In this document: positions 28,661 to 52,340 of the stretch, in pieces
Position numbering within the stretch: position 1 is the first letter of the stretch
Layout: each line of letters begins with the position of its first letter
NCBI GenBank assembly: GCA_044347745.1
Contig: JBIKUD010000004.1
Location: 2,132-66,131 of the forward strand
Reading direction: 5' to 3'
Origin: Bdellovibrionota bacterium
GTDB taxonomy: Bacteria; Bdellovibrionota_C; UBA2361; JAFLCA01
DNA: 64,000 nucleotides
Position numbers and translations under genes: made by a program
The notes under the pieces: model-generated
What the model was told of the DNA's origin: nothing
Databases searched by the model: none
Seen by the model: only the letters and a program-made list of their open reading frames with translations

Positions 28661-29815
28661 ATGGAAGTTAGACCCTATCAGCAGTGCACCGCCTGCGTCA
28701 TGGATACCTCAGATTGTGACATCAGCTTCGATGCCTGCGGAGTCTGCAATCACCATCTCGAATATTTACAAAAATCTCGCTATGCCTGCTCCCCAGAAGA
28801 CAGGACTCGTAAACTCGAGGCCGCTGCCGCACGTATTCGTGAAAGCAGAGGTGCCAAGCAGTATGACTGTGTACTCGGTTTAAGTGGTGGGCTTGACAGC
28901 TCCTATTTGGCTCTACTTGCCCATAGATTAGGGCTTCGCCCCCTCGCTATCCATCTCGACAATGGTTGGAATTCAGAGTTGGCTGTCGACAACATTCAGA
29001 AAATTGTTCAAAAACTCAAATTAGATTTAAAAACGGTAGTCCTTGACTGGGAGACTTTTCGAGAGCTGCAACTTGCTTTCCTTAAAGCATCGGTTGCTAA
29101 TGTTGAAGTACCCACGGATCACGCAATTTTTGCATCGTTGTATCGTAGTGCGGCTGCCGAGGGACTTCAGTTCGTCCTGAGCGGCAACAACATTGCCACT
29201 GAGTCAATCCTCCCGCCTTCCTGGGGTTACAATTTTATGGATTTGCGCCACATTAAATCCATCCACCACCGCTTCGCCAAGCGGCCTCTTGGCGACTACC
29301 CCACACTCTCATTGCCCCGTTATTTGTACTACCGCTACCTAAAGCGAATTCAGAAAATACCGCTGCTTAATTATGTAGACTTTAATAAAAAAATTGCTAT
29401 CCAAGAACTACAGTCAGAGTTTGGATGGCGCGACTACGGATGTAAACATGGAGAATCGAGGTTCACCAGATTTTTCCAAGGCTATATTCTGCCGAAAAAG
29501 TTTGGCTTCGATAAACGACGTGCACACTACTCTTCGCTTATTGTTTCGGGTCAGATGACCAGGGGCGAAGCGTTAGAGCTTTTAAAATACCCCCCGCTTG
29601 CTGAAACAGAACTGAACATCGAAAGGCAATATGTACTAAAAAAACTCGAGCTTTCTGAGCAAGAATTTACTGAAATAATGAAACAAGCTCCCAAACGCGC
29701 CGAAGAATACCCATCGAATGCCGGGCTTTTAAAAATTTTCGCACAACTTAAGCGGGAAAAACTTCAGAAAAATCTTGGATCGTATGTCCCTCAAATCGAT
29801 CAAGCTTCCCTTTAG
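28661..29815 (+). CDS. N-acetyl sugar amidotransferase, WbuX/WbpG/PseA family (PP-loop ATPase), paralogue 1
   Basis: N-terminal 4-Cys cluster (CTAC...CGVCNHH), PP-loop LGLSGGLDSSY, ~62% aa identity to the ORF at 48340-49488. Confidence 0.8.
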   Translation: MEVRPYQQCTACVMDTSDCDISFDACGVCNHHLEYLQKSRYACSPEDRTRKLEAAAARIRESRGAKQYDCVLGLSGGLDSSYLALLAHRLGLRPLAIHLDNGWNSELAVDNIQKIVQKLKLDLKTVVLDWETFRELQLAFLKASVANVEVPTDHAIFASLYRSAAAEGLQFVLSGNNIATESILPPSWGYNFMDLRHIKSIHHRFAKRPLGDYPTLSLPRYLYYRYLKRIQKIPLLNYVDFNKKIAIQELQSEFGWRDYGCKHGESRFTRFFQGYILPKKFGFDKRRAHYSSLIVSGQMTRGEALELLKYPPLAETELNIERQYVLKKLELSEQEFTEIMKQAPKRAEEYPSNAGLLKIFAQLKREKLQKNLGSYVPQIDQASL

Positions 29816-32800
29816 AGAGGAACCGCCTCAGGTTTTTCCAAGTCTTTGGGGCTTGGTGGCTGCTATTGTTCTGTTAATTTGGTTTGTGAGTCCCAGCTTC
29901 TGGACTGCCATTAATAACGAACGCCTCATTTTCAGTTTTGATTCAGATGAGGCGACCCATGTTCGCTTGCTCCGGGACGCACTCATCAATCAAAGCCTTA
30001 ACTTTAACTTTCATGGATACGGGCATCTCTTTTTTAATGTTGCCTACGTAATTGCGCGGGGAACAGAACTTTTGTTGGGTCCTGTTGCAGACCAAACCCT
30101 TATTCAAATCCTGCGAGCCGTGTCTTTAAGCGGCGGAATTTTTTGTCTTCTGGCCGTTTTTTTTCTCGCGCGTCGTTTTTTTGGGGCCTGGCAGGCAGGT
30201 CTTGCTCCGCTTTTTTTGGTGATCTTCTGTGCTGAATTTCGGGCATATTCAGGCATTTCGCATCCCGACACCCTGCAATTAGCACTCACAGTGCTGACTC
30301 TATTTTGGTGCCTGAGTGCGCTCGATAGAAAAAATTTGTTTTTTACACTTGTAACCGCAACTATCTTCGCAGGTCTTACTTTTGTTACAAAATACTCAGG
30401 CCTGTTTTTGCTACCAATTATCTTTCTGTGCGCCTGGAGTCGTCGCGGAGAGCTCCCGACATGGAGGTTTATAGTTCCGGGAACAAGGCTCGTTTTGGCA
30501 GTTTTGGGACTTTGCGGTGTTGTCGTTTCGGTTACCCTTGGCTGGCACCTTTCTGCTGAAACTATTCTTAATTTTTTTAAGCCTGGAGATGCGTTAACTC
30601 CCAACGAACAACACATATTTAATTTGCTCCACCTTGGACTAAAAGTTGTCATAGTTCCTGGACTTGCCTTTGCTGGCGCCAGTCTATGGAACCCCCAAGG
30701 ACGAGCCCCAGCCGCTGCAGTTTACCGATTTATGGGGATAGCCATTCTTCTCAGCGCCATCTTTATACTTACTATTCCTCTGTTTTCTCCCTATCTTTTA
30801 GTTCATGGAAGATTATTAAAAGGCATGTTGGCTGAAAGCCTGCATGTCTCTTTTGGGCATGGCTTTAAGGTTCACAGCTCGGCCTTCGAATGGTTCACCA
30901 TTTTATATTCTCCTTTCGGCATAGGCTCGCTGAGTAGCTTACTTTTATTGTTCTCTTTAATGGGCGAGCAATTTTGGAAAAAACGCCCGCTGCCTGGCTT
31001 CAGTCCCCAACAGATCTTGTGGATCTGGATACTCGGATATTTTTCCTACTTATTTTTCAAAGTGAACTACCGAGAAGCAAGATATTTGCTCCCTCTGGTA
31101 CCCGCCTGCTTTCTGCTGGCTAGCGACCTGCTTGCAAAGATCCTCAATCAGGGGGGACTTCGAAGAAGCTTTTGTGCGCTCGGCATCTTTGTGATTCTCC
31201 TCAGTCAAATTCCTCAACTTAAAGCAGAGAGACAGCGACTAGCGAACAGAGAGGCTAATTCAGTAGCACTTACATTTGCCCTTAAAAATCTTTCTGGGGT
31301 TCCAAAGGAGTCGCGCATAGGTTTTGACGCTTTTGTCTACGTGCCCCCGGAGTTTCAGAAGGCGTATTTTGAATGGCGCTGGTCAGAAGCTCGTATGAAG
31401 GAGCTACAAATCGAGTACTTCATTTTAAACCAAGACGTAGCCGCTCAATATAAAGATCCATCGCGTGCAGTTGATTTTTATTGGGGAGAGGCGCGATTTA
31501 TGGAAGTGCATCACTTCTATAAGAGGCTAGAATCGGGCGCTCTAGGGTTTCAGGAGATAAGCCGCAGTAAAAATCTAATTCTGTATCAGCGCACTGCCAT
31601 GTCTGAAGGAACTCCTCAGCCAAAAAATTCTTCGATACCAGAGGCGTCAACCTTAGACAATTCGGCACTCGACACGCGCCTTTCGCAGCAAATAGAGCGA
31701 ATTTTATCGAGTCGCGATTTTAGTTCACCTGAATCGCTGTGTGATGCTCAGTATGTGCTTATGCTTCCCGCACTTGCAGCTTTTTCTCTTAATCTACCTG
31801 AAAGTAAACAGGTTTTTTGGTTTTACCTCAAGCGAGCTCTTAGCCAAACTCGAACTCTCGAGCAAATCCGCCTTGCTCATGTGAAACGGAGTTACCGAGT
31901 TGACCCATTTTTACTCGATGTTACCCAAAGTGGCCCAGACCAAAGAAGGATTTTTCCATTTGTTCAAAATAGAATTATGTTCCGAGTGCCGCACACTAAA
32001 ACCGGCATTCCTGTTGCAGAAGTAACTGAACAGCCCCTATGCCAACTTCAGTTTTCTTATCTTTTGTCGTTTGTGATGCGACTGACCAGCGCCGAGTCTA
32101 AAACCACACCAGACTCAATACAATTTCTTAATGAAGCATATTCATTTCTTCTAAATGACCTCGTTATTCCATATTGGACTAGTGTTGCTGCCTGGCACTG
32201 GCAAGGTTTTTTTCCAAATATGCGCGAGGCTGTAATAGCGCGCCTCGACTTTATTCATCATAAAAATTTAATAAGCCCTACGTATTATCGTGCCTTTTAT
32301 GATATGGATTTTTTTACGATGGCAATTGCTGCTGATTTGCTTGCAGCAAAAAAAATTTTTGCTCTTTCGAAAGAGCAAGAGACGCAACTCTACGATATTC
32401 AATCCCTTACGCGACGCATGTTTGAAGCCAGGCTTGAGCCGGGTCTTGGATTTCTCTTTCAAAAAGGTATTTGGACTGAGCACCAAGAGTATCAATATGC
32501 GCTTTGCGAGATAGGTCAATCGTTACCAGATACGCCTTGTCCCGACCCACAGCAGGCACCCGACTCAAATCATGCCGAGCGACTTCCCTGGTGGCTACTT
32601 AGTTTTGAATCCTCATTCGAACCCGATTCGGAAGGGGCAAAATATTATCAACATCTTCAAAAACGCCTAGCACACCAATTGGCAGAATCAGTGCTTGACT
32701 GGTCAGCTCAGTTCCCTCGGCTCACCAATTTTATGGACGGAAAAAATGGTTGGTATCGGGTACGCTACAATGGAAGAAATTGGGGCTATGGTCCATTTGC

Positions 32801-33053
32801 ACTCTCTCACGCGGCAAAATGGTTTTCATGGTCCCCGCTAGGGAAATTTGACAATCGAATTACTCAATTTCATGACAAACTTTGTAACCTGATACATACA
32901 AAAGACCGAGCTTCAATTGCTTTTAGAACTGCCTACTACGGCAATCCCGTACAACCTAAACTTTATGGCCTTGGCACAGAAGACGATATCGGGACGAACC
33001 CCCTATACCCCCTTTATTGCGATCTTTGGACGCGCCTGACTTTTTTGCGTTGA
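29775..33053 (+). CDS. Large membrane glycosyltransferase-like protein: N-terminal GT-C fold domain (ArnT/PMT-like) fused to ~590-aa C-terminal domain of unknown function
   Basis: ~13 predicted TM helices in first ~500 aa with acidic loop-1 motif FDSDEATH after TM1; remainder hydrophilic with no motif I recognise. Confidence 0.65.
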   Translation: MDRMSLKSIKLPFREEPPQVFPSLWGLVAAIVLLIWFVSPSFWTAINNERLIFSFDSDEATHVRLLRDALINQSLNFNFHGYGHLFFNVAYVIARGTELLLGPVADQTLIQILRAVSLSGGIFCLLAVFFLARRFFGAWQAGLAPLFLVIFCAEFRAYSGISHPDTLQLALTVLTLFWCLSALDRKNLFFTLVTATIFAGLTFVTKYSGLFLLPIIFLCAWSRRGELPTWRFIVPGTRLVLAVLGLCGVVVSVTLGWHLSAETILNFFKPGDALTPNEQHIFNLLHLGLKVVIVPGLAFAGASLWNPQGRAPAAAVYRFMGIAILLSAIFILTIPLFSPYLLVHGRLLKGMLAESLHVSFGHGFKVHSSAFEWFTILYSPFGIGSLSSLLLLFSLMGEQFWKKRPLPGFSPQQILWIWILGYFSYLFFKVNYREARYLLPLVPACFLLASDLLAKILNQGGLRRSFCALGIFVILLSQIPQLKAERQRLANREANSVALTFALKNLSGVPKESRIGFDAFVYVPPEFQKAYFEWRWSEARMKELQIEYFILNQDVAAQYKDPSRAVDFYWGEARFMEVHHFYKRLESGALGFQEISRSKNLILYQRTAMSEGTPQPKNSSIPEASTLDNSALDTRLSQQIERILSSRDFSSPESLCDAQYVLMLPALAAFSLNLPESKQVFWFYLKRALSQTRTLEQIRLAHVKRSYRVDPFLLDVTQSGPDQRRIFPFVQNRIMFRVPHTKTGIPVAEVTEQPLCQLQFSYLLSFVMRLTSAESKTTPDSIQFLNEAYSFLLNDLVIPYWTSVAAWHWQGFFPNMREAVIARLDFIHHKNLISPTYYRAFYDMDFFTMAIAADLLAAKKIFALSKEQETQLYDIQSLTRRMFEARLEPGLGFLFQKGIWTEHQEYQYALCEIGQSLPDTPCPDPQQAPDSNHAERLPWWLLSFESSFEPDSEGAKYYQHLQKRLAHQLAESVLDWSAQFPRLTNFMDGKNGWYRVRYNGRNWGYGPFALSHAAKWFSWSPLGKFDNRITQFHDKLCNLIHTKDRASIAFRTAYYGNPVQPKLYGLGTEDDIGTNPLYPLYCDLWTRLTFLR

Positions 33054-33328: not shown

Positions 33329-35542
33329 ATGTCGTGGCGTATTCTGTTGCGCAGTGCAATTTTTTTAATTGTATGTGTATTTTCGAGTAGTCCAGCGTGG
33401 GCCATATATACACGAATGCGTTTTACCGGCCCGTTTCACATTTCGAGCTGCCCCCCTTCGGGCCCCTCGCAGGTGGTCACAACGAACATACGGTATGACC
33501 TTGATTTTCGTCCTCTCCAAAACGTTGGTGCCATCGATCCGGTAGCAACTATCCTGCTCTACACCCAAAATCCACACCCGAGCTGCGCAGATGATCCGTT
33601 GGGAGCCAATTGTTTATCTTCATTCCCTCTGGGACAGCGCGCATTTTTGCCAAATCCACGTGAAATTCCAATCTCTATTACGAGCGCCATGGGGGGCCAA
33701 ACCTTCCACCTCCTTGCCGTGGGCTTTTCTATGGCATCGGGATCATTACAGGTTACGCACACCCGCGTTACTCCATTCCGATTTCTTGAATGTACGAGCA
33801 CACCAGCACCACTCGCTGTTCCCGGAGCAGGGTTTAGCTCAGGTCCGCCCGCTACCAGCGTGGTTGCTGGAACTCCCGCATTCTTACAAAACCAAACTAC
33901 CGTGGCTCACTGGGCTCTTGAAATTCAGCGTGACCGCCTGAGCGAAGCCCGCGAAATCGGCGTCATGACCGACAACGCCAGTGGCATTCAACGGGTAGAT
34001 TTTTCGGTCAATGGTGGTCCGATAGTTTCGGTAACGGAACGTCGATACGGCAAACGCGACGCGGCTCCGGGATATTTTATTACCGTCAATCCAGCTCAGT
34101 TTACTCCTGGCTCCCTTATTGAAATAAGAGCGGTAGTGTACCCCGTGTTCGGAAAAACTGCGGTACTGGCTGGACCAGTCACCACTCTTTCATCGGGATC
34201 AACCCCACCGACTTCAAATACGGGCTTACATAGTTTATTTTTGTACGCCGACCCAAATAATGCGCTGCCGAGGGCGACAGTTTATCTATCCCCAGGTGGC
34301 AATGACAACAGCGGCACAGGGTCGATTAGTGCTCCTTTTCTTACCTTTGCTCGGGCCGTAAATTCATTACGCACAACTCTTGGCAACAAACTAAGTGGTG
34401 GAACCATTGCTCTCTTGCCTGGTGACTATGTGCTTGGCTCTGGTCTGCCCAATTGGTGGACTCAAAGCGAATATCCAGACGGTTATCTAACTGTTGAATC
34501 GGCACCTGGTGTTCCTTCCGATCAAGTTCGCTTTGTAAATGTGCAGTCCAGCTGGATGGCGCGCTTTCTGAAAGTGCGTAACCTTACTATCTTGCCCCCT
34601 TTTAACGTTTCTATTTTGCGCGACGGCGATGGTGAACGAAGGGCACACCTCTACGTAGAAAATGTGGATGTGTATAGCCCGAGCCTTACCAGTGGGCACT
34701 TTAATTACGGCGGCAACGAGTTCGGGTTCAAAGCCGTGAAGCGTTCCTATACCGTGGGTGGTGACCGGGGCGTTGATTCCGCGTCATGGATTGCAAATTT
34801 TATGACCTATTACGGCACAGGGATCGCCTTTAACGACTCAATTCTTGTCTTTTCCTCGCTCGCCGAAAATTATGACCAGTATCGTCGTCATCCAGCGAAT
34901 CATGGAGACCTATTCCACATTCATGGAAGGGAGAAAAATATTCTTATCCAATGGCTTCTTCGCGGCGTGGATTTGTTCCGAATCCAAGGTCTATTCTTGT
35001 CAGCGGCCAAAGACGGGGTAGCAATTATCGAAAGCGTCAGCGATGTTGCTACTCGCGAAAAAGAAGTTGGCGCTCCAGGCAATGCTGCCCCTATCGGAGG
35101 ACAGCAGAACTTGATTATACGCAGCTCTGAATTTTTTGGTCAGGCAAACGTATTTAGTAATCCTGCAAACCAGCCGGGCAGCGTCTTTTTAGCAGACGGT
35201 GTGACATTCCCCATGAATCCTTGCAACACTTTTAATGAAGATTGCAATCCTTCTACGGGAACTTCAAACAACTCAAGCGGAGTGGTCTACTTAGGAAATG
35301 CCGCAGCATTAACAATGGTAAAATCGTCAGAGCCCGCTAAAACAATTGGGAAAGTCAACAAGGCAAAAATAGGCAAGCCCGCCCAAATTTCGCAAAAATC
35401 TCTTCGAATATTACTAAAATCTTTTCCTAAAGAGATTGCGCGCTTAATTCAAAAACAGACTGCGCTTTCAAAGCCAGCAGTCAAACGCAAGTTAGCTTTA
35501 CGTAGGTTGAACAATAAGGCAAAAAGCGTGGTTATTAGTTAG
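33329..35542 (+). CDS. Secreted protein, probably right-handed beta-helix (pectin-lyase fold)-like, with Lys-rich C-terminal tail
   Basis: Signal MSWRILLRSAIFLIVCVFSSSPAWA after GAGGTGG RBS; Gly/Asn/Ser/Thr-rich periodic body; ~70-aa K/R-rich C-terminus. Confidence 0.5.
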   Translation: MSWRILLRSAIFLIVCVFSSSPAWAIYTRMRFTGPFHISSCPPSGPSQVVTTNIRYDLDFRPLQNVGAIDPVATILLYTQNPHPSCADDPLGANCLSSFPLGQRAFLPNPREIPISITSAMGGQTFHLLAVGFSMASGSLQVTHTRVTPFRFLECTSTPAPLAVPGAGFSSGPPATSVVAGTPAFLQNQTTVAHWALEIQRDRLSEAREIGVMTDNASGIQRVDFSVNGGPIVSVTERRYGKRDAAPGYFITVNPAQFTPGSLIEIRAVVYPVFGKTAVLAGPVTTLSSGSTPPTSNTGLHSLFLYADPNNALPRATVYLSPGGNDNSGTGSISAPFLTFARAVNSLRTTLGNKLSGGTIALLPGDYVLGSGLPNWWTQSEYPDGYLTVESAPGVPSDQVRFVNVQSSWMARFLKVRNLTILPPFNVSILRDGDGERRAHLYVENVDVYSPSLTSGHFNYGGNEFGFKAVKRSYTVGGDRGVDSASWIANFMTYYGTGIAFNDSILVFSSLAENYDQYRRHPANHGDLFHIHGREKNILIQWLLRGVDLFRIQGLFLSAAKDGVAIIESVSDVATREKEVGAPGNAAPIGGQQNLIIRSSEFFGQANVFSNPANQPGSVFLADGVTFPMNPCNTFNEDCNPSTGTSNNSSGVVYLGNAAALTMVKSSEPAKTIGKVNKAKIGKPAQISQKSLRILLKSFPKEIARLIQKQTALSKPAVKRKLALRRLNNKAKSVVIS

Positions 35543-42019: not shown

Positions 42020-42241
42020 TTTTTTTCCTCTATTTCCACAAATTCTGGTGACAAATTGCAAGTTTTTGTCTTTTTGTTAGGGACAAGTCGAAGTATAACG
42101 ATGTTAACTATTACGCGCTATGACAAATTCAACTCAAAGCGCATATTTGTTTAAACCCGGGCTGTTTCATTTTTTCAAATGTGGAGCATGCCGGTAGTGT
42201 TTGAGCCCCGCATATAAGGGCCACATTTAAAGGGGCATAAG

Positions 42242-44163: not shown

Positions 44164-44493
44164 GAGCGTTTTTCGGATTTTCACGGAGAACGGGCGCTGT
44201 TTGAATGGGGCGTTTTTGCCCGAGGGATGAATCGAGTTTTCAACTCTTAGTTTCTCGTTCTCCCTCAAAATGCGTTCAGACGAGGCGCGAGGCTTGTGTG
44301 GCAACCGAGTGGTACAGAATGTACCTCGCAGGGAGCCTCCAAGCCTCGGAACAAAGTATGAACGCAACGAAAAGCGCATCCAGAATTGCAAGGGATTGAG
44401 CTCTTGGTGCCCCCTTCCCTGCAATGATCTAGGGCAAATCACGAGCTCAACTCCCCGCAATTCAGAGCGTTTTTCGGATTTTCACGGAGAACG
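44164..44493 (+). repeat. Copy 2 of the structured repeat element (plus orientation), flanked by perfect 29-bp direct repeats
   Basis: DRs GAGCGTTTTTCGGATTTTCACGGAGAACG at 44164-44192 and 44465-44493; hairpin 1 at 44272-44365, hairpin 2 at 44396-44450. Confidence 0.85.
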
Positions 44494-45281: not shown

Positions 45282-45295
45282 ACTACATCCTAAAC

Positions 45296-46765
45296 CTAGG
45301 TTCCCACCGCGCTTAGTACACTTGACGCTTGCTTGGACCACTGCCCCCGGCCAAGCGAAGTCAATTTCATTCGGCGGCGATGCCAATGACGGGTAAGCTC
45401 GTGGGGCGTGCCAACAAATATCGTCGGATCGCTTAACTGCGATTGCAATAACGCTAAAAAACTATCGGTAAAACCAGCAAAAAGCCATTGGTTGCATCCC
45501 GTTTCCGTATGCCAATCAACCACGGCGCAGAGTCCCCTCTCCTGAATTAATTTAAGTACATGCATTGCTGCTTCGAGCGCAATTCCTTCATCGGAAAATC
45601 CTCTTAACTTTGCATCTGCTGTTGGCAAGACGTGTTTCTCGAGCAAACAGGTTGGAAACACATACATATCAAGCGGTTTTTCCCGTTCAAGGTCATATGG
45701 TCGGTACGGTAAGGCAGTGCCAGCCCGAAATCCTGGAATATCTCTCCAGGCAATCGACATGTCATAGCGAAAGCCAGCATTTACATGTTTTCTATGCGTT
45801 CGATGCGGTTTTTCCCAATCAAGAGCCCAGTAATGATGCCGCAAACCCCAAATGGGAGTTTCAAGTTTCTCCTCCAAAAACTTTTTGGCATGAATGAAAT
45901 AATCCAAAGATTTTTTAGCCTCGATACCTGCATGCAACCCAAACTCCCAGCCCTGCTGGCTCAAGGTTCTTAGCGGCTGCCAAAGCGCATCATCTGTTTT
46001 GGGATGAAAATAACTTTTACAATCATTCAGAGTTCTATGAGTGCCAAAAGCCGCTGTAGAGAGCAAAAAGCAAGACTTGGCAGCAAACTGATTCTCAAGG
46101 TCGGCCCAATTTTGGAAGCAAAAATAAGGATCCTGAATAATCGGGGCCCGGCGCGCTTTAAGACTTGCCCAGAGTAAATCTTTGTAAACCGGCAACCGGC
46201 GTCGAGCCCATTTCGCTACCAACGCACATAGTTCGTTCATAGACCCAAGTTGAAGGGCGTCGGTGTCATGTGTAACAACGAGGGCAGATTTTTTTCCTCC
46301 TGGCCAAAGCGTTTCGGTTTCGCCGAGGAGATTTTCGTACCTCGCTTTAAACGCCAAGGCACACTCATCAACCAGCGGACGGGCAGCAACCGCCTGCCTC
46401 CACTCAGGAAGCACAGAGGAATAGAATATTCCGCGATCATCACGGCAGTTCTCTCCAATTTCTTGCTCATCTAAGAAAGTGAGCAAGCGAAAAGTCAGGC
46501 CAATACAATCGAAGCCAGGCTCAAGGTAATTTTGGTAAGCTTGCCGAAGAGTTGCCGATAATTTTTTTTCGAAATACCATTCAGGCTCACAACGAATTAC
46601 TTCCTTCCCGCTCAGCGCAGAACAGTTGGAATTTGTGTAGACCCAATGAGCAGACTCGATAGTATCTTCTAATTGCAGGGCCACTCCCAGCCTGAGCGCA
46701 AATTCCTGCCACGCATATTCAACGCGCGGTCTTAGTTGTGAGGGAACATCAATAAAAAGCTTCAT
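45296..46765 (-). CDS. Hypothetical protein (possibly carbohydrate esterase/deacetylase-like)
   Basis: 489-aa ORF in the polysaccharide locus; motif VVTHDTDA and His-rich segments; no confident family. Confidence 0.45.
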   Translation of the reverse strand: MKLFIDVPSQLRPRVEYAWQEFALRLGVALQLEDTIESAHWVYTNSNCSALSGKEVIRCEPEWYFEKKLSATLRQAYQNYLEPGFDCIGLTFRLLTFLDEQEIGENCRDDRGIFYSSVLPEWRQAVAARPLVDECALAFKARYENLLGETETLWPGGKKSALVVTHDTDALQLGSMNELCALVAKWARRRLPVYKDLLWASLKARRAPIIQDPYFCFQNWADLENQFAAKSCFLLSTAAFGTHRTLNDCKSYFHPKTDDALWQPLRTLSQQGWEFGLHAGIEAKKSLDYFIHAKKFLEEKLETPIWGLRHHYWALDWEKPHRTHRKHVNAGFRYDMSIAWRDIPGFRAGTALPYRPYDLEREKPLDMYVFPTCLLEKHVLPTADAKLRGFSDEGIALEAAMHVLKLIQERGLCAVVDWHTETGCNQWLFAGFTDSFLALLQSQLSDPTIFVGTPHELTRHWHRRRMKLTSLGRGQWSKQASSVLSAVGT

Positions 46766-48216
46766 GGTACACTCTTACTGAGCTGAGAACGAAGATTCAA
46801 GGCCCGCCAAGCCCACCATGCGACCATACACAACAACGCAAGGCAAAATTGGATCAGCACTGAATCTAACACGAGCGAGAGCAACACGAGAATAAAAAGC
46901 GAACTGCCCAAGCTCATGAGAATTGAGGCACCCAATGCAATCAAAGCTGTAACAGGCATGCCCGCGTAGGAATAAATAAACCAAAGATAAGCAACATGAT
47001 ACAAGACCGCACACACGGTAAATGCCTGAACCACCACAAGAGAGCTCCCGCCCCCAGCTAACAACAGATAGACAACAGCCATATTTATTAAATCAGCAAC
47101 AAGCTGCAACAAAAAGACCACCCGCTGTTTGCCCGCAACTTCAAATATACGCTCTGGCCAGCTCGTGAAGGCTAAACAATAGCCCACCACAGCCATCACA
47201 CTACAAAAAGTTCCCGCTTGGGCCCATTGCTGCCCCATCAGCAAAGGGAAGAGCTGCGGAGAAAACCACACAAGCAGCGCGAGCCCCGGAGTAGCAAACT
47301 CTGCCAAAAGCTGCATCAAACGTCTCGTCAGCTTTGTAAACGCTTCAGTACCTAAAGAAAGCGCAGCTTCCCGAAAAAATACCCTCCCCAGCGATACCGA
47401 AAGGACCGCCATCGGCGAAAAAAGCAAAGTGCGACAAAGCGCAACGTAACCCGCATCAGCATTTCTCCCAAACGCCAATAAAAAGACCGCCAAAAATCCG
47501 CCCGAAAAATTAGTAAGCAAAGAATGTGGAATATTGTAGAGCGGGAAAGCGCGGTAGTACCAAGCTACCTGAGACAGATACCCGAGCTGTCTCTTGCGAT
47601 TTTGATAGATGCGCTGACATTCGGCGGTCAGTTGGCGCCAGAGTGGAAGTAGGCCCACAAAGCGCCCTGCTGCATGGCCCCAGAGTAGCCCCGTGCTGCC
47701 AAGACTAGCGCAACCGATTTTGCCGGCGGCTGAGGCCAACTGCATAAGGAGCATATTTTGGGACAAGCTAGCATAGCGCTCTTTCCGATTGAGCACATAC
47801 GAGCCAAATTCGGCCAGACCGACCACTGCGACTGTCAGTGGTAAGGCGATAAGCCAAGTTGAAGGTACAAGCTGAACGTAATAAAATCCTATCAAAAGCA
47901 GAGCAAAGAGGATTAGAGATAAAGTTATCACCAATCCCACCCCCATACAGGTCACCGCAGAAGCCCGACGCGGATTACGTGGAAGCAGCACCGCAAGCTC
48001 ATAGCGTCCGGTAACCACAGCCCCGCATAGCCCGGCTGCAAGCATAAAGGCAGCATAGTTACCAAAGGCTTCTGGAGAATAGAGCCTCGATAAAATGGGT
48101 AATACCGCAAAAGGGACGAGCTGGGCACACACCGAGCCCGTAAGTAGCACTGCCGCCTTCTTTAAAAGCGTTCCCATAGAACGGGTATTGGTGTTGACGT
48201 CGGTGTGCGAAAGCAT
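46762..48216 (-). CDS. Wzx-like polysaccharide flippase (MOP/PST family)
   Basis: ~12-14 TM helices, 484 aa, polysaccharide-biosynthesis-protein N-terminal pattern. Confidence 0.75.
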   Translation of the reverse strand: MLSHTDVNTNTRSMGTLLKKAAVLLTGSVCAQLVPFAVLPILSRLYSPEAFGNYAAFMLAAGLCGAVVTGRYELAVLLPRNPRRASAVTCMGVGLVITLSLILFALLLIGFYYVQLVPSTWLIALPLTVAVVGLAEFGSYVLNRKERYASLSQNMLLMQLASAAGKIGCASLGSTGLLWGHAAGRFVGLLPLWRQLTAECQRIYQNRKRQLGYLSQVAWYYRAFPLYNIPHSLLTNFSGGFLAVFLLAFGRNADAGYVALCRTLLFSPMAVLSVSLGRVFFREAALSLGTEAFTKLTRRLMQLLAEFATPGLALLVWFSPQLFPLLMGQQWAQAGTFCSVMAVVGYCLAFTSWPERIFEVAGKQRVVFLLQLVADLINMAVVYLLLAGGGSSLVVVQAFTVCAVLYHVAYLWFIYSYAGMPVTALIALGASILMSLGSSLFILVLLSLVLDSVLIQFCLALLCMVAWWAWRALNLRSQLSKSVP

Positions 48217-48339: not shown

Positions 48340-49488
48340 ATGAAAGCGTACCAAATATGTAATTCCTGTGTCATGGATACAAGCGATCCTCAGATTCGCT
48401 TCGATTCTCATGGCGTATGTAATCATCATGCTGAATATGCCGACACCTGCGCCTCTCAGCTTTTGCCCTCTCCCGCCCGTGAACAGGCACTTGAGCGTGT
48501 CGTTGCTCAAATGAAATCTGAAGGTAAAGGCAAACCGTATGACTGTGTCTTGGGACTTAGCGGCGGCGTAGACAGCTCCTACATGGCGCTACTGGTGCAC
48601 CGACTCGGACTACGACCTCTCGTCGTGCATTTTGATAATGGATGGAATTCAGAGTTGGCAGTAAGCAACATAGAAAAAATCCTCACCAAACTTCAATTTG
48701 ATCTCGAAACTTATGTCGTAGACTGGGAAGAGTTTAGAGATTTACAAGTCGCTTTCCTCAAAGCATCAGTTGCGAATGCTGAGTATCCTACCGATCATGG
48801 GATATTCGCCTGCCTCTACCGCTCCGCCGCCAAACACGGAATTCGTTATGTGCTGAGCGGGAGCAATCTACAATCGGAGGGGATTCTTCCTGCCAGCTGG
48901 GAATATCACTACATGGACTATCGCCACCTTCGGGCTATTCACGCTCAATTTGGCACTCGACCACTTAAGACGTTTCCCACACTTAGTTTTAGCCGCTACC
49001 TTTATTATTTCTACGTTAAGCGACTGCAGAAGGTACGGTTATTGCAGTTTGTCGATTATCACAAAGAATCCGCTATAGCTGAATTAAAGAATTTTTTTGA
49101 TTGGCGTTATTACGGCGGAAAACATTACGAATCGTTGTTTACAAAATTTCATCAAGGTTTTTATCTTCCTAAAAAATTCGGAATCGACAAGCGCCGAGCC
49201 CATCTTTCATCGTTAATAGTCTCGGGGCAAATAACGAGAGAGGAGGCCCTGAAGGAGCTAGAAAAGCCGGCGTATCCAGAAGCCGAATTGGAAACTGACC
49301 TAAACTACATGCGGAAAAAGCTGGAACTAAGCGAAGAAGACTTCAGCCAAATCTTAAATTCGAAACCTAGGGCCTATTCCGAATACCCCAACAATAATAA
49401 GTTGTTCGAATTTTTGCGCTCAGGTCGTTCAAATCTTCGATCACTGATCCAGCACCGGCAAAACACATTCAATCCAAAGCCGGTGTAG
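48340..49488 (+). CDS. N-acetyl sugar amidotransferase, WbuX/WbpG/PseA family, paralogue 2
   Basis: Same 4-Cys N-terminus and PP-loop LGLSGGVDSSY; nucleotide stretch GGAATTCAGAGTTGGC shared with paralogue 1. Confidence 0.8.
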   Translation: MKAYQICNSCVMDTSDPQIRFDSHGVCNHHAEYADTCASQLLPSPAREQALERVVAQMKSEGKGKPYDCVLGLSGGVDSSYMALLVHRLGLRPLVVHFDNGWNSELAVSNIEKILTKLQFDLETYVVDWEEFRDLQVAFLKASVANAEYPTDHGIFACLYRSAAKHGIRYVLSGSNLQSEGILPASWEYHYMDYRHLRAIHAQFGTRPLKTFPTLSFSRYLYYFYVKRLQKVRLLQFVDYHKESAIAELKNFFDWRYYGGKHYESLFTKFHQGFYLPKKFGIDKRRAHLSSLIVSGQITREEALKELEKPAYPEAELETDLNYMRKKLELSEEDFSQILNSKPRAYSEYPNNNKLFEFLRSGRSNLRSLIQHRQNTFNPKPV

Positions 49489-49491
49489 TCG

Positions 49492-50280
49492 ATGAAACTT
49501 GCCCTTCTTGGAATGCCAGACAACGACAACACCCGCCAATTTAGGCTGTACTTAGAGTCTGAGTTTGCGGACTGGGAACTCTCAGTAATTTATTGGAAGC
49601 CTGATTTTAGAAATCAGCTTCAAAGAACCCTGCGTAAGCTCAGACTGGCTGGTGCAAAGGCCACCACTCAGAGAATTTCTCAAGCACTCAAAATTAAAAA
49701 ATCGAGACGGAGGAACGAGCAATTCCTAAAATACGCCGATACAACAAAAGAGTTTTGGGTATCCCATCATAACTCCGAGCACTGCGCCGAAATTATTATA
49801 AAGCAAAAAATCGACCTGGTTCTGCTCTCAACCGATGCTATTTTAACCAAAAAGGTACTGAGAGCCCCTCGACTACTCACCCTGAATGCTCACCCTGGAC
49901 TCACCCCCCGCTATCGCGGGCTTGGCTCCCTTTTTTACATGCTTCAAGATGGGCTACAGCCGGTAGTCAGCGTTCACGCCGTCGACGAAGGTATAGATAC
50001 AGGGCCGCTTTTATATCGAGAAGTGGTGCCGGTTGACCCCAAAACTGGCTTGGAGTCTATAGTGAACACCGTGCTTACGCAGCGACTTTCTATTGTTGGC
50101 AAAGTATTGCGTGCTATCGAGTTAGATGGTCCCACATATCAAGATACCTTCTTAGAGCAAAGTGCGATGACCAGAGGCATGCCACTTGCCGAACGACAAA
50201 ATCTCGACGAAGCATTAAAAACCGGAAAGATACAATTAACTCTCCCCCAGCATGAGTTTCAGGATAATTGGGCGCCCTGA
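49492..50280 (+). CDS. Formyltransferase-domain protein (sugar N-formyltransferase-like)
   Basis: Formyl_trans_N signature NAHPGLTPRYRGLG (cf. HPSLLPxxRG). Confidence 0.7.
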   Translation: MKLALLGMPDNDNTRQFRLYLESEFADWELSVIYWKPDFRNQLQRTLRKLRLAGAKATTQRISQALKIKKSRRRNEQFLKYADTTKEFWVSHHNSEHCAEIIIKQKIDLVLLSTDAILTKKVLRAPRLLTLNAHPGLTPRYRGLGSLFYMLQDGLQPVVSVHAVDEGIDTGPLLYREVVPVDPKTGLESIVNTVLTQRLSIVGKVLRAIELDGPTYQDTFLEQSAMTRGMPLAERQNLDEALKTGKIQLTLPQHEFQDNWAP

Positions 50281-50417: not shown

Positions 50418-52340
50418 GTGGTATCTCGATTAGAAACTCTCCTCATTCGTGTTAGACTCCCCCTCATTCTGTGCCTAGGGCTTATTCTTACCTCCCTCAG
50501 CTACACCCTAGCCTTAGGCCTACGCTTTGATTTTGATTGGAACGAAGTATTTCTTCTCGATCGCTTTTTATTGCCCTGGAGCCTCCTTCTTTTTTATCGG
50601 GCAGCCAGTTATTCGTTTTTTCAATTAAATCGCGGTTATTGGCGTTATGCTTCAACTCAAGACCTTATAGACATCATTAAGGCACACGGGCTTTCGAGTC
50701 TATTTTTAACCGCAACAGCTCTATTTTTGCGTCTGGAAGAATTCCCACGCTCCGTAGTTCTTATAGAACTCGCCATTTCGATTATATTTTGTGGCGGTAG
50801 CCGATTGGCAGTCCGTGTATTAGGTGAGCGCCTCGTGGCCCAGCAAGATATGGAGGAAGATACTGCCCGAGACGTAATCGTTATCGGCGCTGGTGATTCA
50901 GGGCATCTTATAATTAAAAACATGCTCAGTTTAAAGCGACTCTCGTATAGACCCGTAGCAGTGTTGGACGATAGCGACAATCTGCAGGGAGTCAACTTGT
51001 ACGGCGTGAAGGTAGTTGGACGAATCACTAATCTCGAAGAACAACTAGAAAAGTTTCCTAGAGTCAGCGCAGTTATTGTAGCAATTCCCACAATTTCGAA
51101 TACGCGTCTTCGCAGCATTGAGGCAGTTTGCAAAACCTTTGGAGTGGCACTTAAAAAACTCCAATCATTTGAAGATATCGCTTGCATCGACGCCTCTGTT
51201 AAGCACGAGGGCGTAAGCATCGAACAGGTGCTTGAAAAGAAAACTCAAATTGAACATGAAGATGAAATTCGTAGAGAACTGAATAATCGCACCATACTGA
51301 TTACCGGAGCTGGCGGCTCTATTGGTTCGGAAATTGTGCGCCAGGTCTGTTATTTTGACCCCCATAAAGTGGTACTTCTCGATAGCTCTGAATACAATCT
51401 CTTTCGAATGGAGCGAGAACTACACACAGCCTTTGAGCGTGGAGGAAAAAAAGCTGAATTCCGCTGCGTAGTGGCAAATATTGTTGATGCCGCGAGACTA
51501 AGCAAAATTTTCAGTTCCGAAAAACCTGAATATGTCTTTCACGCCGCAGCCTATAAGCACGTGCCACTTATGGAGCATAACTGCTACGAGGCCTTTCGTA
51601 ATAATGTAATTGGCACCAAAAATGTACTGGATGCCTCAGTGCAGTTTGGAGTGCGGCGCTTTGTGCTTATCTCCAGCGACAAAGCTGTGGCTCCGTCAAG
51701 CATTATGGGATGCTCAAAGCTTTTGGCTGAACTGCTCGTACAATGGTACTCGCATACCCAGCAAACCACAGCTAGCAATCACCCACTTGCCACCTCAATC
51801 GTCCGCTTTGGAAACGTGATCAACAGTACAGGCAGTGTCATTCCGATATTTAAAGAGCAGATTTTAAGTGGTGGTCCTGTGACTATCACCCACCCAGACA
51901 TGGAGCGCTATTTCATGTCTATTCGTGAAGCAGTGCGTCTTGTGCTTACCGCAGGGACTCTCGGTCAGAAAGGAGAAATTTATATTCTCGACATGGGACG
52001 CCCGATGAAGATTGTAGATGTAGCGCGTAAAATGATGGCGCTCTACGGTCGCCGCGACATTGAAATTGAGTACACCGGCATGCGGCCTGGGGAAAAGCTC
52101 ACGGAGGAGTTACTCACCTCGCATGAACTACGGGGACCAACTCGGTTTGATAAAGTAAACAGAGTGCAAAACTTTGAGCCACCAAGCATCGACATTTCTC
52201 GTTGGGTACTGGAGGTAGAACAAAAGCTGCCACGCCTCTCTGATACCGAGATACGAGATCTCATGTTTACGCTTGCGAATACTGCCTGCCCTTCGGCATC
52301 TCCAGTAGCGCAACCAAAGACAACAGCCAAAGTTGCCTAG
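50418..52340 (+). CDS. Membrane-anchored UDP-N-acetylglucosamine 4,6-dehydratase (WbpM/PglF/CapD family)
   Basis: Four N-terminal TM helices, then short-chain dehydrogenase ILITGAGGSIGSEI and CapD-type catalytic region; 640 aa. Confidence 0.85.
   Translation: MVSRLETLLIRVRLPLILCLGLILTSLSYTLALGLRFDFDWNEVFLLDRFLLPWSLLLFYRAASYSFFQLNRGYWRYASTQDLIDIIKAHGLSSLFLTATALFLRLEEFPRSVVLIELAISIIFCGGSRLAVRVLGERLVAQQDMEEDTARDVIVIGAGDSGHLIIKNMLSLKRLSYRPVAVLDDSDNLQGVNLYGVKVVGRITNLEEQLEKFPRVSAVIVAIPTISNTRLRSIEAVCKTFGVALKKLQSFEDIACIDASVKHEGVSIEQVLEKKTQIEHEDEIRRELNNRTILITGAGGSIGSEIVRQVCYFDPHKVVLLDSSEYNLFRMERELHTAFERGGKKAEFRCVVANIVDAARLSKIFSSEKPEYVFHAAAYKHVPLMEHNCYEAFRNNVIGTKNVLDASVQFGVRRFVLISSDKAVAPSSIMGCSKLLAELLVQWYSHTQQTTASNHPLATSIVRFGNVINSTGSVIPIFKEQILSGGPVTITHPDMERYFMSIREAVRLVLTAGTLGQKGEIYILDMGRPMKIVDVARKMMALYGRRDIEIEYTGMRPGEKLTEELLTSHELRGPTRFDKVNRVQNFEPPSIDISRWVLEVEQKLPRLSDTEIRDLMFTLANTACPSASPVAQPKTTAKVA

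What the first reader, a model, noticed from the sequence alone, without database searches (positions are those of the whole stretch)
28661..52340. Polysaccharide locus with duplicated WbuX/WbpG-type amidotransferases and no classical glycosyltransferases
Two paralogous PP-loop N-acetyl-sugar amidotransferases (28661-29815 and 48340-49488, ~62% identity) occur with only one HisH/HisF-like pair (42725-44148). The locus also has WbpB-like (Gfo/Idh/MocA), WbpE-like (DegT), WbpD-like (hexapeptide) and WbpM-like enzymes. In the P. aeruginosa O5 and E. coli O145 systems, WbpG/WbuX with HisH/HisF homologues make acetamidino (N-acetimidoyl) amino sugars. Two amidotransferases, a formyltransferase and an O-methyltransferase together predict a sugar carrying several different N-acyl or amidino decorations. 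Despite Wzx, an initiating PglC-type transferase and a Wzy_C/ligase-family protein, I see no GT-A or GT-B glycosyltransferase in 26 kb. Chain assembly may rely on the 1092-aa GT-C-like protein, or those genes lie outside the window.
Basis: partly seen in the sequence, partly recalled or inferred. Interest (0 to 1): 0.6.

Follow-up and report, generated by a model that had tools for sequence, protein, structure and literature searches.

The report
Amidino-sugar glycan locus lacking ordinary glycosyltransferases
This is a tightly packed 26-kb surface-sugar gene cluster from an uncultured freshwater Gram-negative bacterium that has many enzymes for decorating amino sugars, including two diverged amidine-forming enzymes sharing one ammonia-supplying pair, but no ordinary glycosyltransferase, so any sugar joining encoded here must be done by membrane enzymes outside the cytoplasm or by genes elsewhere in the genome.

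Summary
Two intact WbuX-family amidotransferases (59% identical, not 62%) sit in one locus with a single HisH/HisF pair. No GT-A or GT-B domain was found in the locus, the 64-kb window or 10 kb beyond each end. The real locus is 26276-52340: 21 genes, largest gap 290 bp, housekeeping flanks.

New points:
- The Gfo, DegT and hexapeptide genes are WlbA/WbpB-, WbpE- and WbpD-like, but WbpA and WbpI are absent.
- The 489-aa "unknown" is a distant VimE-like deacetylase. Its family is often fused to this formyltransferase subfamily, so the two probably act together.
- Split transketolase, AKR, TylF methyltransferase and a PglC-like transferase form a cassette that recurs elsewhere.
- The 1092-aa protein fuses a PMT_2-type GT-C (invariant Asp, near-invariant Glu, first loop) to a periplasmic (alpha/alpha)6 barrel from a Pfam-less family.
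- The Wzy_C protein carries the WaaL/PglL motif.
- Two WbuX with one HisH/HisF also occur in Brevundimonas, Mesorhizobium and (from the literature) Campylobacter jejuni, so that feature is not unusual.

Best reading: a Wzx-dependent short glycan built on undecaprenyl phosphate and finished by periplasmic enzymes. Glycosyltransferases elsewhere in the genome cannot be excluded. It is a new variant of a known kind, of moderate interest.

The parts
26276..27862 (+). Wzy_C-family ligase or O-oligosaccharyltransferase (528 aa, multi-TM)
   Evidence: Pfam Wzy_C 58.7 bits against cutoff 31.7. Carries the motif HSDPLQILIETGLIG, which fits H[NSQ]x9Gxx[GTY] (the motif definition is from my own knowledge). 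At least 9 hydrophobic segments. Named 'O-antigen ligase' by sources.
28105..28584 (+). Small lipoprotein-like secreted protein (159 aa from the likely start) with a Thr/Ser/Ala/Gly-rich body and an acidic tail; possible acceptor, function unknown
   Evidence: Signal peptide with an LLAAC lipobox. No Pfam or NCBIfam hit. Conserved in all metagenome copies.
28661..29815 (+). WbuX-family N-acetyl-sugar amidotransferase, paralogue 1 (PP-loop ATP pyrophosphatase)
   Evidence: TIGR03573 279.7 bits against cutoff 203.2. SGGLDS motif present.
29784..33053 (+). Fusion protein: N-terminal PMT_2-type GT-C glycosyltransferase (residues about 25-610) and C-terminal periplasmic (alpha/alpha)6-barrel domain (about 630-1090)
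33329..35542 (+). Secreted 737-aa protein of unknown family, with Ser/Thr/Pro-rich linkers and possibly a beta-helix
   Evidence: Signal peptide. No Pfam hit. Weak PelN N-cap match, E 1e-3. AF2 failed, pLDDT 34.
35598..36683 (-). WlbA/WbpB-like UDP-sugar 3-dehydrogenase (Gfo/Idh/MocA)
   Evidence: Pfam. PDB 3q2k E 6.5e-96 and 3q2i E 1.3e-88 over the full length. 58-69% identical to genes beside HisH/HisF/WbuX in other genomes.
36708..37658 (-). Aldo/keto reductase (inferred ketoreductase of the sugar pathway)
   Evidence: Aldo_ket_red 168 bits. Homologue sits in the L081 cassette.
37640..38296 (-). Small PglC-type polyprenyl-phosphate sugar-1-phosphate transferase (initiating enzyme)
   Evidence: Bac_transf 191.6 bits. 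Best PDB match is PglC 8e37, E 1e-29. One N-terminal hydrophobic helix.
38302..39078 (-). TylF/Methyltransf_24-type methyltransferase
   Evidence: Pfam. Same family is present in the L081 cassette.
39068..40881 (-). Split thiamine-diphosphate enzyme (transketolase/DXS-like; N subunit 40024-40881, C subunit 39068-40051)
   Evidence: Transketolase_N, Transket_pyr and Transketolase_C. NCBIfam gives transketolase and DXS below cutoffs. 48% and 43% identical to the L081 pair, 49% and 41% to the L034 pair.
40895..42061 (-). DegT-family sugar aminotransferase, closest to C-3 aminotransferases (WbpE-like)
   Evidence: DegT 377.9 bits. PDB matches: QdtB 5.8e-95, DesV-type 2oga 3.8e-86, WbpE 6e-84; 4-aminotransferases match more weakly.
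42242..42718 (+). Hexapeptide N-acetyltransferase (WbpD/WlbB/QdtC-like)
   Evidence: Hexapep. PDB WlbB 3mqg 3.7e-11 and QdtC. 62-71% identical to genes in WbpB/WbpE/HisHF/WbuX loci.
42725..44148 (+). Single HisH (42725-43408) and HisF2/AglZ-type (43405-44148) pair, the inferred ammonia supply for the amidotransferases
   Evidence: TIGR01855 208.9 bits. NF038364 324.7 bits against cutoff 310.
44439..45386 (-). Membrane di-iron FA_desaturase-family protein; role in the locus unknown
   Evidence: FA_desaturase 101.3 bits.
45296..46765 (-). Cytoplasmic VimE-like (CE4-type) N-deacetylase or deformylase, 489 aa
   Evidence: NF053580 VimE E 1.4e-16, 60 bits, below the 440-bit cutoff. No TM segments. 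175 homologues; several of those listed carry a formyltransferase domain.
46762..48216 (-). Wzx-type flippase
   Evidence: Polysacc_synt_3 45.3 bits against cutoff 23. About 12 TM segments.
48340..49488 (+). WbuX-family N-acetyl-sugar amidotransferase, paralogue 2
   Evidence: TIGR03573 287.7 bits. SGGVDS motif present. Sister to paralogue 1 in an NJ tree of 74 sequences.
49492..50280 (+). Sugar N-formyltransferase of the subfamily found fused to the VimE-like deacetylase
   Evidence: Formyl_trans_N 56.1 bits. 41% identical over its whole length to residues 494-747 of fusion protein P0216.
50418..52340 (+). Membrane-anchored PglF/WbpM-type UDP-GlcNAc 4,6-dehydratase
   Evidence: Polysacc_synt_2 366.7 bits. 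PDB PglF (WlaL) 5bjw, E 1.4e-78.

Best explanation
This is a chromosomal surface-glycan locus (26276-52340) of an uncultured freshwater Gram-negative bacterium. It combines heavy cytoplasmic tailoring of UDP-amino sugars with an assembly line that uses only lipid-carrier-dependent membrane enzymes.

Shown by sequence:
- A PglF/WbpM 4,6-dehydratase.
- A WlbA/WbpB-like 3-dehydrogenase, a WbpE-like 3-aminotransferase and a WbpD-like N-acetyltransferase.
- Two diverged WbuX PP-loop amidotransferases and one HisH/HisF2 pair.
- A distant VimE-like deacetylase and a formyltransferase that are fused in other organisms.
- A split ThDP enzyme, an AKR and a TylF methyltransferase.
- A PglC-like priming transferase, Wzx, a WaaL/PglL-type Wzy_C protein and a GT-C fused to an (alpha/alpha)6 barrel.

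Inferred mechanism:
1. HisH hydrolyses glutamine and HisF2 channels the ammonia.
2. Each WbuX adenylates the carbonyl of a different N-acyl group, on different positions or different sugars, and converts it to an amidine. One ammonia-supplying pair serves both.
3. The deacetylase and formyltransferase exchange one N-acetyl for N-formyl.
4. The ThDP enzyme adds a C2 unit to the 4-keto sugar. The AKR reduces it and TylF methylates it.
5. The small transferase puts the sugar-1-phosphate on undecaprenyl phosphate and Wzx flips it.
6. The Wzy_C enzyme transfers the very short unit, possibly one sugar, en bloc. Lipid A-core is somewhat more likely as the acceptor than a protein.
7. The GT-C/(alpha/alpha)6 fusion adds to or processes the glycan in the periplasm.
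For: Family assignments:
- Pfam and NCBIfam scores at or above the curated cutoffs for WbuX (twice), HisH, HisF2, Bac_transf, Wzx, Wzy_C, PMT_2, DegT, Gfo, Polysacc_synt_2 and Formyl_trans_N.
- PDB sequence matches: 3q2k 6.5e-96; QdtB, DesV and WbpE; WlbB and QdtC; PglC 1e-29; PglF 1.4e-78.

Recurring modules:
- Gfo, DegT, hexapeptide, HisH, HisF and WbuX co-occur in many genomes at 46-71% identity.
- Two WbuX with one HisH/HisF also occur in L034 and L051.
- The C. jejuni mutant data show two separate acetamidino-forming genes (PMC4195440) beside one HisH/HisF pair (PMC12102941).
- The TK/AKR/TylF/PGT cassette recurs in L081 next to a WbpM-like gene and a homologue of the C-domain.

Deacetylase and formyltransferase:
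- The two families occur as fusion proteins, and the window formyltransferase is 41% identical to the fused domain.
- The Wbp/Vim pathway is a precedent for 2-N-deacetylation followed by re-acylation (PMC7468200).

GT-C fusion:
- D55 is invariant and E56 near-invariant.
- The two halves are separate adjacent ORFs in L079.
- The C-domain has an (alpha/alpha)6 fold.
- Stand-alone homologues carry signal peptides.
- A GH88-domain protein lies beside a GT-C homologue in L083.

Absence of Leloir glycosyltransferases:
- No Leloir GT was found in about 84 kb.
- No gene in the locus was identified as a Wzy polymerase or Wzz.
Against: - The locus has two apparently separate precursor arms: a 2,3-diamino arm and a 4-keto-6-deoxy arm. 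That normally means at least two sugars and therefore at least one glycosyltransferase.
- Related loci with the same modules do contain GT4 genes (L051, L079, L080, L081).
- PMT_2-type GT-C enzymes normally need a polyprenyl-monophosphate sugar made by a GT2, and none is present.
- WbpA and WbpI are missing, so precursor genes clearly also lie elsewhere in the genome.
- No substrate, product or acceptor was tested.
- The roles given to the ThDP enzyme, the AKR, the FA_desaturase protein and the 737-aa protein are inferences or unknown.
Confidence: 0.5

Rival explanations
1. This is a conventional multi-sugar O-antigen or capsule locus in which only precursor, priming, flipping and ligation genes are clustered here. 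The Leloir glycosyltransferases, and WbpA/WbpI, Wzy and Wzz, lie elsewhere in the chromosome, so the apparent lack of GTs is just a matter of gene placement.
For: - WbpA and WbpI are already missing although the Gfo protein is a strong WlbA homologue, so the pathway must draw on distant genes.
- Two separate precursor arms suggest at least two sugars.
- Related loci carry GT4 genes beside the same modules.
Against: - No GT was found in about 84 kb centred on the locus.
- The locus is compact, with a priming enzyme, a flippase and a ligase all present. That is the usual place for the GTs.
- GC content is uniform and the flanks are housekeeping genes, so there is no sign of a recently broken island.
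Confidence: 0.3
2. This is a general protein O-glycosylation system of the PglL/PilO/PglS type. A single highly modified bacillosamine-like sugar on undecaprenyl diphosphate is transferred by the Wzy_C enzyme to periplasmic or surface proteins. Candidates are the adjacent 159-aa lipoprotein and the 737-aa secreted protein. No Wzy and no Leloir GT would be needed.
For: - The PglF-like, PglC-like, Wzx and Wzy_C proteins match the minimal Neisseria/Campylobacter-type toolkit.
- No gene in the locus was identified as Wzy or Wzz.
- A lipoprotein-like ORF rich in Ser, Thr and Ala lies directly after the Wzy_C gene.
- The 737-aa secreted protein has Ser/Thr/Pro-rich linkers.
- Target genes next to the transferase gene are known for pilA-tfpO and comP-pglS (my own knowledge).
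Against: - Sequence cannot separate WaaL from PglL-type enzymes, and the sources name the protein an O-antigen ligase.
- The aminotransferase is closest to C-3 enzymes, not C-4 enzymes, so the sugar is not a classical bacillosamine.
- No glycosylation sequon or pilin was identified.
- This reading gives no role to the GT-C/(alpha/alpha)6 fusion.
Confidence: 0.2

Closest known systems
Pseudomonas aeruginosa O5 (B-band) wbp pathway and Bordetella wlb pathway for 2,3-diacetamido-2,3-dideoxy-uronic acids, with WbpG, HisH2 and HisF2 forming the 3-acetamidino group
   Same: A WlbA/WbpB-like dehydrogenase (3q2k 6.5e-96), a WbpE-like aminotransferase, a WbpD/WlbB-like acetyltransferase, a WbuX/WbpG-family amidotransferase with HisH/HisF2, a WbpM-type dehydratase, and Wzx.
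   Different: - No WbpA (UDP-GlcNAc 6-dehydrogenase), no WbpI (2-epimerase), and no WbpH/WbpJ/WbpL-type transferases.
- No gene identified as Wzy or Wzz.
- A second WbuX paralogue.
- Extra deacetylase/formyltransferase, ThDP/AKR/TylF and GT-C modules.
- A PglC-type priming enzyme rather than a WbpL (GPT) type.
Escherichia coli O145 WbuX/WbuY/WbuZ (L-FucNAm formation)
   Same: Both paralogues pass the TIGR03573 WbuX model. HisH- and HisF-like partners are present, alongside a 6-deoxy-HexNAc pathway enzyme.
   Different: - The HisF-like protein passes the AglZ/HisF2 model (324.7 against 310) but not the WbuZ equivalog (261.1 against 299.7).
- No FnlABC-type L-FucNAc genes.
- Two amidotransferases rather than one.
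- No glycosyltransferases.
Campylobacter jejuni flagellin glycosylation island (PseA Cj1316c and PtmG Cj1324 with HisH Cj1315c and HisF Cj1314c)
   Same: Two separate acetamidino-forming genes for two different sugars share one HisH/HisF pair in one island (PMC4195440, PMC12102941). That Cj1324 is a PseA/WbuX homologue is from my own knowledge.
   Different: - The C. jejuni substrates are nonulosonic acids, used by Maf-type flagellin transferases in the cytoplasm.
- Here there are no nonulosonate synthase genes, and the pathway is lipid-linked through PglC-like, Wzx and Wzy_C proteins.
Porphyromonas gingivalis Wbp/Vim pathway (VimE deacetylase then VimA re-acylation of the 2-amino group)
   Same: WbpB/E/D-type enzymes together with a VimE-like deacetylase, followed by a new N-acyl group (PMC7468200).
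   Different: - The match to VimE is distant: 60 bits against a 440-bit cutoff.
- The re-acylating partner is a formyltransferase, supported by fusions, not a VimA aminoacyl transferase.
- There is no T9SS context.
Arn (polymyxin-resistance) pathway: ArnB, ArnA formyltransferase, ArnD deformylase and ArnT GT-C
   Same: The same set of enzyme classes occurs: a DegT aminotransferase, a formyltransferase, a CE4-like deacylase and a PMT_2-type GT-C acting on a lipid-linked amino sugar.
   Different: - No ArnC-type GT2, no ArnA decarboxylase domain and no ArnE/F.
- NCBIfam ArnA and ArnB models match only weakly.
- The GT-C carries an extra (alpha/alpha)6 domain.

Membership tests
WbuX / N-acetyl sugar amidotransferase (TIGR03573) | Whole-protein HMM score above the curated cutoff (203.2 bits) | tested here: met
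   279.7 bits (28661-29815) and 287.7 bits (48340-49488).
WbuX / N-acetyl sugar amidotransferase (TIGR03573) | PP-loop ATP-pyrophosphatase motif SGGxDS intact in both copies | tested here: met
   LSGGLDSSY and LSGGVDSSY align.
WbuX / N-acetyl sugar amidotransferase (TIGR03573) | Genomic association with HisH- and HisF-like partners | tested here: met
   One pair lies at 42725-44148 in the same locus. The same association is seen in most of the 71 related loci.
WbuX / N-acetyl sugar amidotransferase (TIGR03573) | Conversion of an acetamido group to an acetamidino group | not testable with these tools
   Needs an enzyme assay or glycan structure determination.
AglZ/HisF2 acetamidino-modification protein (NF038364) versus WbuZ (TIGR03572) | Score above the curated cutoff | tested here: met
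   NF038364 scores 324.7 against 310 and is met. The WbuZ equivalog scores 261.1 against 299.7 and is not met.
Complete Wbp/Wlb pathway for UDP-ManNAc3NAcA | WbpA (UDP-GlcNAc 6-dehydrogenase) and WbpI (2-epimerase) present with WbpB/E/D | tested here: not met
   No UDPG_MGDP_dh or Epimerase_2 domain was found in any window ORF scanned. WbpB/E/D-like genes are present.
WlbA/WbpB UDP-sugar 3-dehydrogenase | Full-length close similarity to solved WlbA proteins | tested here: met
   3q2k 6.5e-96 (query 6-345) and 3q2i 1.3e-88. The identity of these entries as WlbA is from my own knowledge; the file names them oxidoreductase and dehydrogenase.
PglC-type small monotopic phosphoglycosyl transferase | About 200 aa, one N-terminal membrane helix and a Bac_transf catalytic domain | tested here: met
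   218 aa, one hydrophobic segment at 12-30. Bac_transf 191.6 bits. PglC 8e37 E 1e-29.
PglF/WbpM UDP-GlcNAc 4,6-dehydratase | N-terminal membrane region plus Polysacc_synt_2 SDR domain, with similarity to PglF | tested here: met
   366.7 bits. 5bjw 1.4e-78. N-terminal TM segments present.
WaaL / PglL-type ligase (Wzy_C) | Wzy_C domain above cutoff and the H[NSQ]x9Gxx[GTY] motif | tested here: met
   58.7 bits against 31.7. HSDPLQILIETGLIG fits the motif. Acceptor specificity (lipid A-core or protein) is not testable here.
GT-C glycosyltransferase (PMT_2; ArnT/PMT-like) | PMT_2 above cutoff, a multi-TM N-terminal domain and a conserved acidic motif in the first extracytoplasmic loop | tested here: met
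   30.0 bits against 26.1. At least 10 TM segments. D55 is invariant and E56 is conserved in 5 of 6 sequences.
GT-C glycosyltransferase (PMT_2; ArnT/PMT-like) | A polyprenyl-monophosphate sugar donor supplied by a GT2 synthase | tested here: not met
   No GT2 was found in the window or within 10 kb outside it. None is recorded in the fetched flanks of homologues in L007, L079 and L083. The donor is unknown.
Leloir glycosyltransferases (GT-A / GT-B) | Any Glycos_transf_1/2, Glyco_trans_4 or similar domain in the locus | tested here: not met
   None at E of 0.01 or better in the locus ORFs, or at 0.001 or better in the flanking ORFs scanned. No tblastn remnant.
VimE deacetylase (NF053580) | Score above the equivalog cutoff (440 bits) | tested here: not met
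   60.1 bits, E 1.4e-16. It is a distant relative only; it works like VimE but is not a member of the equivalog.
Wzy polymerase / Wzz chain-length regulator | A dedicated multi-TM polymerase and a Wzz/GNVR protein in the locus | tested here: inconclusive
   No Wzz or GNVR hit. All multi-TM proteins are otherwise assigned (Wzx, Wzy_C with the ligase motif, GT-C, FA_desaturase). Wzy proteins are hard to recognise by HMM.

The most novel reading that the evidence does not exclude
This could be a glycan assembly line with no Leloir glycosyltransferase. All tailoring enzymes would act on one hexose, giving a 2,3-diamino-6-deoxy (or branched) sugar with two different amidine or formyl decorations. 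One of these might be a formamidino group made by WbuX2, whose gene is separated from the formyltransferase gene by only three bases. The single-sugar undecaprenyl-diphosphate unit would then be polymerised or transferred only by periplasmic enzymes. The PMT_2-type GT-C, fused to an (alpha/alpha)6 glycan-processing domain, would use a diphosphate-linked donor and act as a combined polymerase and trimmer.
Probability: 0.12. Interest if true: 0.8.

Novelty: new variant of a known kind. Interest (0 to 1): 0.45.

Why it matters
If the locus is self-sufficient, a bacterial surface glycan can be built with a priming transferase and periplasmic lipid-carrier-dependent enzymes alone. It would also assign a role to a widespread, unnamed GT-C plus (alpha/alpha)6 pairing.

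Independently of that, the analysis gives testable functional links for three uncharacterised families:
- A VimE-like deacetylase paired or fused with a formyltransferase, suggesting N-acetyl to N-formyl exchange on amino sugars.
- A split ThDP enzyme/AKR/TylF/PglC-like cassette for a modified priming sugar.
- A Pfam-less periplasmic (alpha/alpha)6 family.

It also shows that two diverged WbuX enzymes sharing one HisH/HisF pair is a recurring design. That is useful when predicting amidino sugars from genomes. Such cationic or zwitterionic sugars matter for immune recognition and for phage and antimicrobial-peptide interactions.

Tried and rejected
- AF2 of the 737-aa secreted protein from a single sequence failed (pLDDT 34), so no fold search was run on it. 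Relaxed Pfam scans of its halves, the 159-aa ORF and the C-domain gave nothing significant.
- I suspected that the 716-aa protein next to a GT-C homologue in L007 was the counterpart of the 737-aa protein. BLASTP shows no similarity.
- I suspected that P0170 lay on L076 because both contigs are 10442 bp. tblastn and the look-up show it is a different contig, L082.
- Unannotated multi-TM proteins next to C-domain homologues (L080, L079) are not related to the GT-C domain by hhalign.
- The GTDB scan did not find the source organism; the best hit is 51% identical. A search seeded with the 489-aa protein returned the self hit without an organism name. The taxon is therefore unknown.
- Two literature searches for transketolase genes in glycan loci, and one for VimE using word-start matching, returned irrelevant papers.
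- I rejected the idea that the 489-aa ORF is a Wzy polymerase. It has no TM segments and is deacetylase-like.
- I rejected a recent duplication with one copy decaying. Identity is 59% and both copies keep their motifs.

Full report
**Observation**

- The two WbuX-family proteins (28661-29815 and 48340-49488) score 279.7 and 287.7 bits on TIGR03573 against a cutoff of 203.2.
- They are 59% identical over 359 residues, and both keep the SGGxDS PP-loop and the N-terminal Cys motif.
- One HisH (TIGR01855, 208.9 bits) and one HisF-like protein are present. The HisF-like protein passes the AglZ/HisF2 acetamidino-modification model (324.7 against 310) but not the WbuZ equivalog (261.1 against 299.7).
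- No other His_biosynth gene or hisH-type glutaminase was found elsewhere in the window.

**Absence of glycosyltransferases**

- No GT-A or GT-B Pfam family hit any locus ORF of at least 100 aa, or any of the flanking ORFs scanned.
- The flanks are housekeeping genes. Upstream are sdh, mdh, hflKC, recN, nadK and coaE. Downstream are a CNNM protein, an M50 protease, a lipid A acyltransferase, queG and tRNA-Glu.
- Walking 10 kb beyond each window end on the 357,995-bp and 106,928-bp metagenome contigs again shows only housekeeping genes: sucCD, clpB, ankyrin and nadE on one side, tol-pal, gap and tpi on the other.
- tblastn with ten GT2/GT4/GT9/GT20 proteins taken from related loci finds no remnant, and the largest gap inside the locus is 290 bp.
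- GC content is uniform across the locus and flanks.
- The locus runs from the Wzy_C gene (26276) to the PglF-like gene (52340). It has 21 genes in five blocks of alternating strand.

**Precursor enzymes**

- The Gfo/Idh/MocA protein matches PDB 3q2k and 3q2i at 6.5e-96 and 1.3e-88 over its full length. I know these entries as Bordetella and Chromobacterium WlbA, UDP-GlcNAcA 3-dehydrogenases; that identification is my own knowledge.
- The DegT protein is closest to sugar C-3 aminotransferases: QdtB 5.8e-95, 2oga 3.8e-86 and WbpE 6e-84. C-4 enzymes match more weakly.
- The hexapeptide protein matches WlbB, QdtC and WxcM-type 3-N-acetyltransferases.
- In a tblastn matrix over 71 GTDB loci that encode a WbuX relative, these three genes recur next to HisH, HisF and WbuX at 58-69%, 46-53% and 62-71% identity. 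The WbpB/E/D/G-type module is therefore real.
- WbpA and WbpI are absent, so the product need not be a mannuronic acid.
- The 640-aa protein is a PglF/WbpM-type 4,6-dehydratase (5bjw, 1.4e-78).
- The 218-aa transferase is PglC-like (8e37, 1e-29).

**New assignments**

*The 489-aa ORF.* It has no TM segment and is a distant relative of VimE (NF053580, E 1.4e-16, far below the cutoff).
- VimE is the putative 2-N-deacetylase of the P. gingivalis Wbp/Vim pathway, in which deacetylation is followed by re-acylation (PMC7468200).
- Among 175 homologues, several of those listed carry a Formyl_trans_N domain.
- The window's 262-aa formyltransferase is 41% identical over its whole length to that fused domain.
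- This fusion evidence links the two enzymes. The simplest reading is an exchange of N-acetyl for N-formyl. An Arn-like transient formylation and deformylation is an alternative.

*The ThDP cassette.* The split transketolase/DXS-like enzyme, the AKR, the TylF-type methyltransferase and the small phosphoglycosyl transferase recur as a block in L081.
- That block lies next to a WbpM-like gene and a homologue of the C-terminal domain described below.
- I infer that the cassette modifies the 4-keto-6-deoxy product before priming: C2 transfer, then reduction, then O-methylation, by analogy with YerE/YerF. This is inference only.

*The 1092-aa protein.* It is a fusion. An exhaustive phmmer search gave 869 hits, which fall into two groups:
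- proteins of about 600 aa matching residues 25-610 (PMT_2 GT-C);
- proteins of about 430-520 aa matching residues 630-1090.

The second group has no Pfam family. Further points on the fusion:
- In L079 the two parts are adjacent ORFs in the same frame.
- The GT-C part keeps an invariant Asp (D55) followed by a near-invariant Glu (E56) in its first loop.
- Stand-alone homologues have signal peptides.
- A GT-C homologue in L083 sits beside a GH88-domain protein.

*The Wzy_C protein.* It carries the WaaL/PglL motif.

**The duplicated amidotransferases**

- In an NJ tree of 74 sequences the two window paralogues are sisters on long branches. This points to an old, lineage-specific duplication with both copies retained. 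The sampling was seeded from WbuX1, so it is biased.
- L051 has the order WbuX, GT4, WbuX, GT4, GT4, plus a UDP-sugar dehydrogenase.
- In C. jejuni, pseA (Cj1316) and Cj1324 mutants lose different acetamidino sugars (PMC4195440). Only one HisH/HisF pair (Cj1315c and Cj1314c) lies next to pseA (PMC12102941).
- Sharing one ammonia-supplying pair is therefore a recurring design and not a surprise.

**Mechanism**

*Shown.* The enzyme families and their linkage.

*Inferred.*
- HisH and HisF2 deliver ammonia to two PP-loop enzymes that amidinate different N-acyl groups.
- The deacetylase and formyltransferase swap one acyl group.
- The ThDP enzyme, AKR and TylF modify the keto sugar.
- The PglC-like enzyme primes undecaprenyl phosphate and Wzx flips the unit.
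- The Wzy_C enzyme ligates a very short unit.
- The GT-C/(alpha/alpha)6 fusion acts on the glycan in the periplasm.

*Main weakness.* Two precursor arms normally imply two sugars and therefore a glycosyltransferase. Related loci do carry GT4 genes, so transferases elsewhere in the genome remain a serious rival (0.3). A protein O-glycosylation reading (0.2) is also open, because WaaL and PglL cannot be told apart by sequence and two secreted Ser/Thr-rich proteins are encoded in the locus.

**Source**

The same locus occurs, with locus proteins 99-100% identical, in several freshwater metagenome assemblies. No GTDB species representative turned up in the scan; the best WbuX match is 51% identical. 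The lipid A acyltransferase and the Tol-Pal genes indicate a Gram-negative envelope.

**Verdict**

The finding is real and correctly read. The duplication is an ordinary variant of a known design. The lack of Leloir glycosyltransferases, together with the GT-C/(alpha/alpha)6 fusion and three newly linked uncharacterised modules, makes this a new variant of a known kind with moderate interest (0.45).

Noticed in passing
window 52679-52732 and 52980-53033 (also 52683-52702 / 52910-52929): A 54-nt direct repeat (89% identical, 301 nt apart) and a 20-nt inverted repeat lie in the 700-bp non-coding gap between the PglF-like gene and the CNNM gene. No Rfam hit was found there.
   Followed up: partly
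window 28078-28584 (likely start 28105): A small lipoprotein-like ORF with an LLAAC lipobox, a beta-sandwich-like middle (CarboxypepD_reg only at E 0.13), a Gly/Ala-rich hydrophobic C-terminal segment and the acidic tail DSNNDDNDELSPAD. It could be a glycosylation target or carry a sorting signal.
   Followed up: partly
P0213, P0216, P0218, P0223, P0228, P0237, P0250; L085 10001-12292: The VimE-like deacetylase family is repeatedly fused to a formyltransferase domain. In L085 the fusion gene sits among respiratory genes rather than in a glycan locus, so its substrate may not always be a glycan precursor.
   Followed up: partly
window 31602-33050; homologues P0025, P0026, P0170 and others: The C-terminal domain of the 1092-aa protein defines a Pfam-less family. 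Its members make up a large share of the 869 hits to the full-length query. It has a predicted (alpha/alpha)6 barrel and invariant Asp and Trp residues.
   Followed up: yes
L081 3505-11263: A conserved block, in order: TylF, small PGT, AKR, transketolase N, transketolase C, a WbpM-like gene and a C-domain homologue. A lipoprotein of about 540 aa follows that is 53% identical to one in L080.
   Followed up: partly
window 44439-45386: An FA_desaturase-family membrane di-iron protein is encoded inside the glycan locus, in the same strand block as the deacetylase and Wzx genes. No homologue was seen in any of the 71 related loci and no role is evident.
   Followed up: no
L087 16049-17212 (about 16 kb beyond the window start): An ankyrin-repeat protein lies in the same contig, which may hint at a host- or protist-associated lifestyle for the source organism.
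   Followed up: no
L079 3310-6021: In this relative (DegT 70% identical) the GT-C and (alpha/alpha)6 parts are in the same reading frame, separated by a stop codon. This could be a sequencing error or a real split gene. A GT4 gene lies between DegT and the GT-C there.
   Followed up: partly
window 20202-22695: A 388-aa protein with weak N6_N4_Mtase/UPF0020 marks and a neighbouring 395-aa protein without any Pfam family lie upstream of the locus. They were not examined.
   Followed up: no
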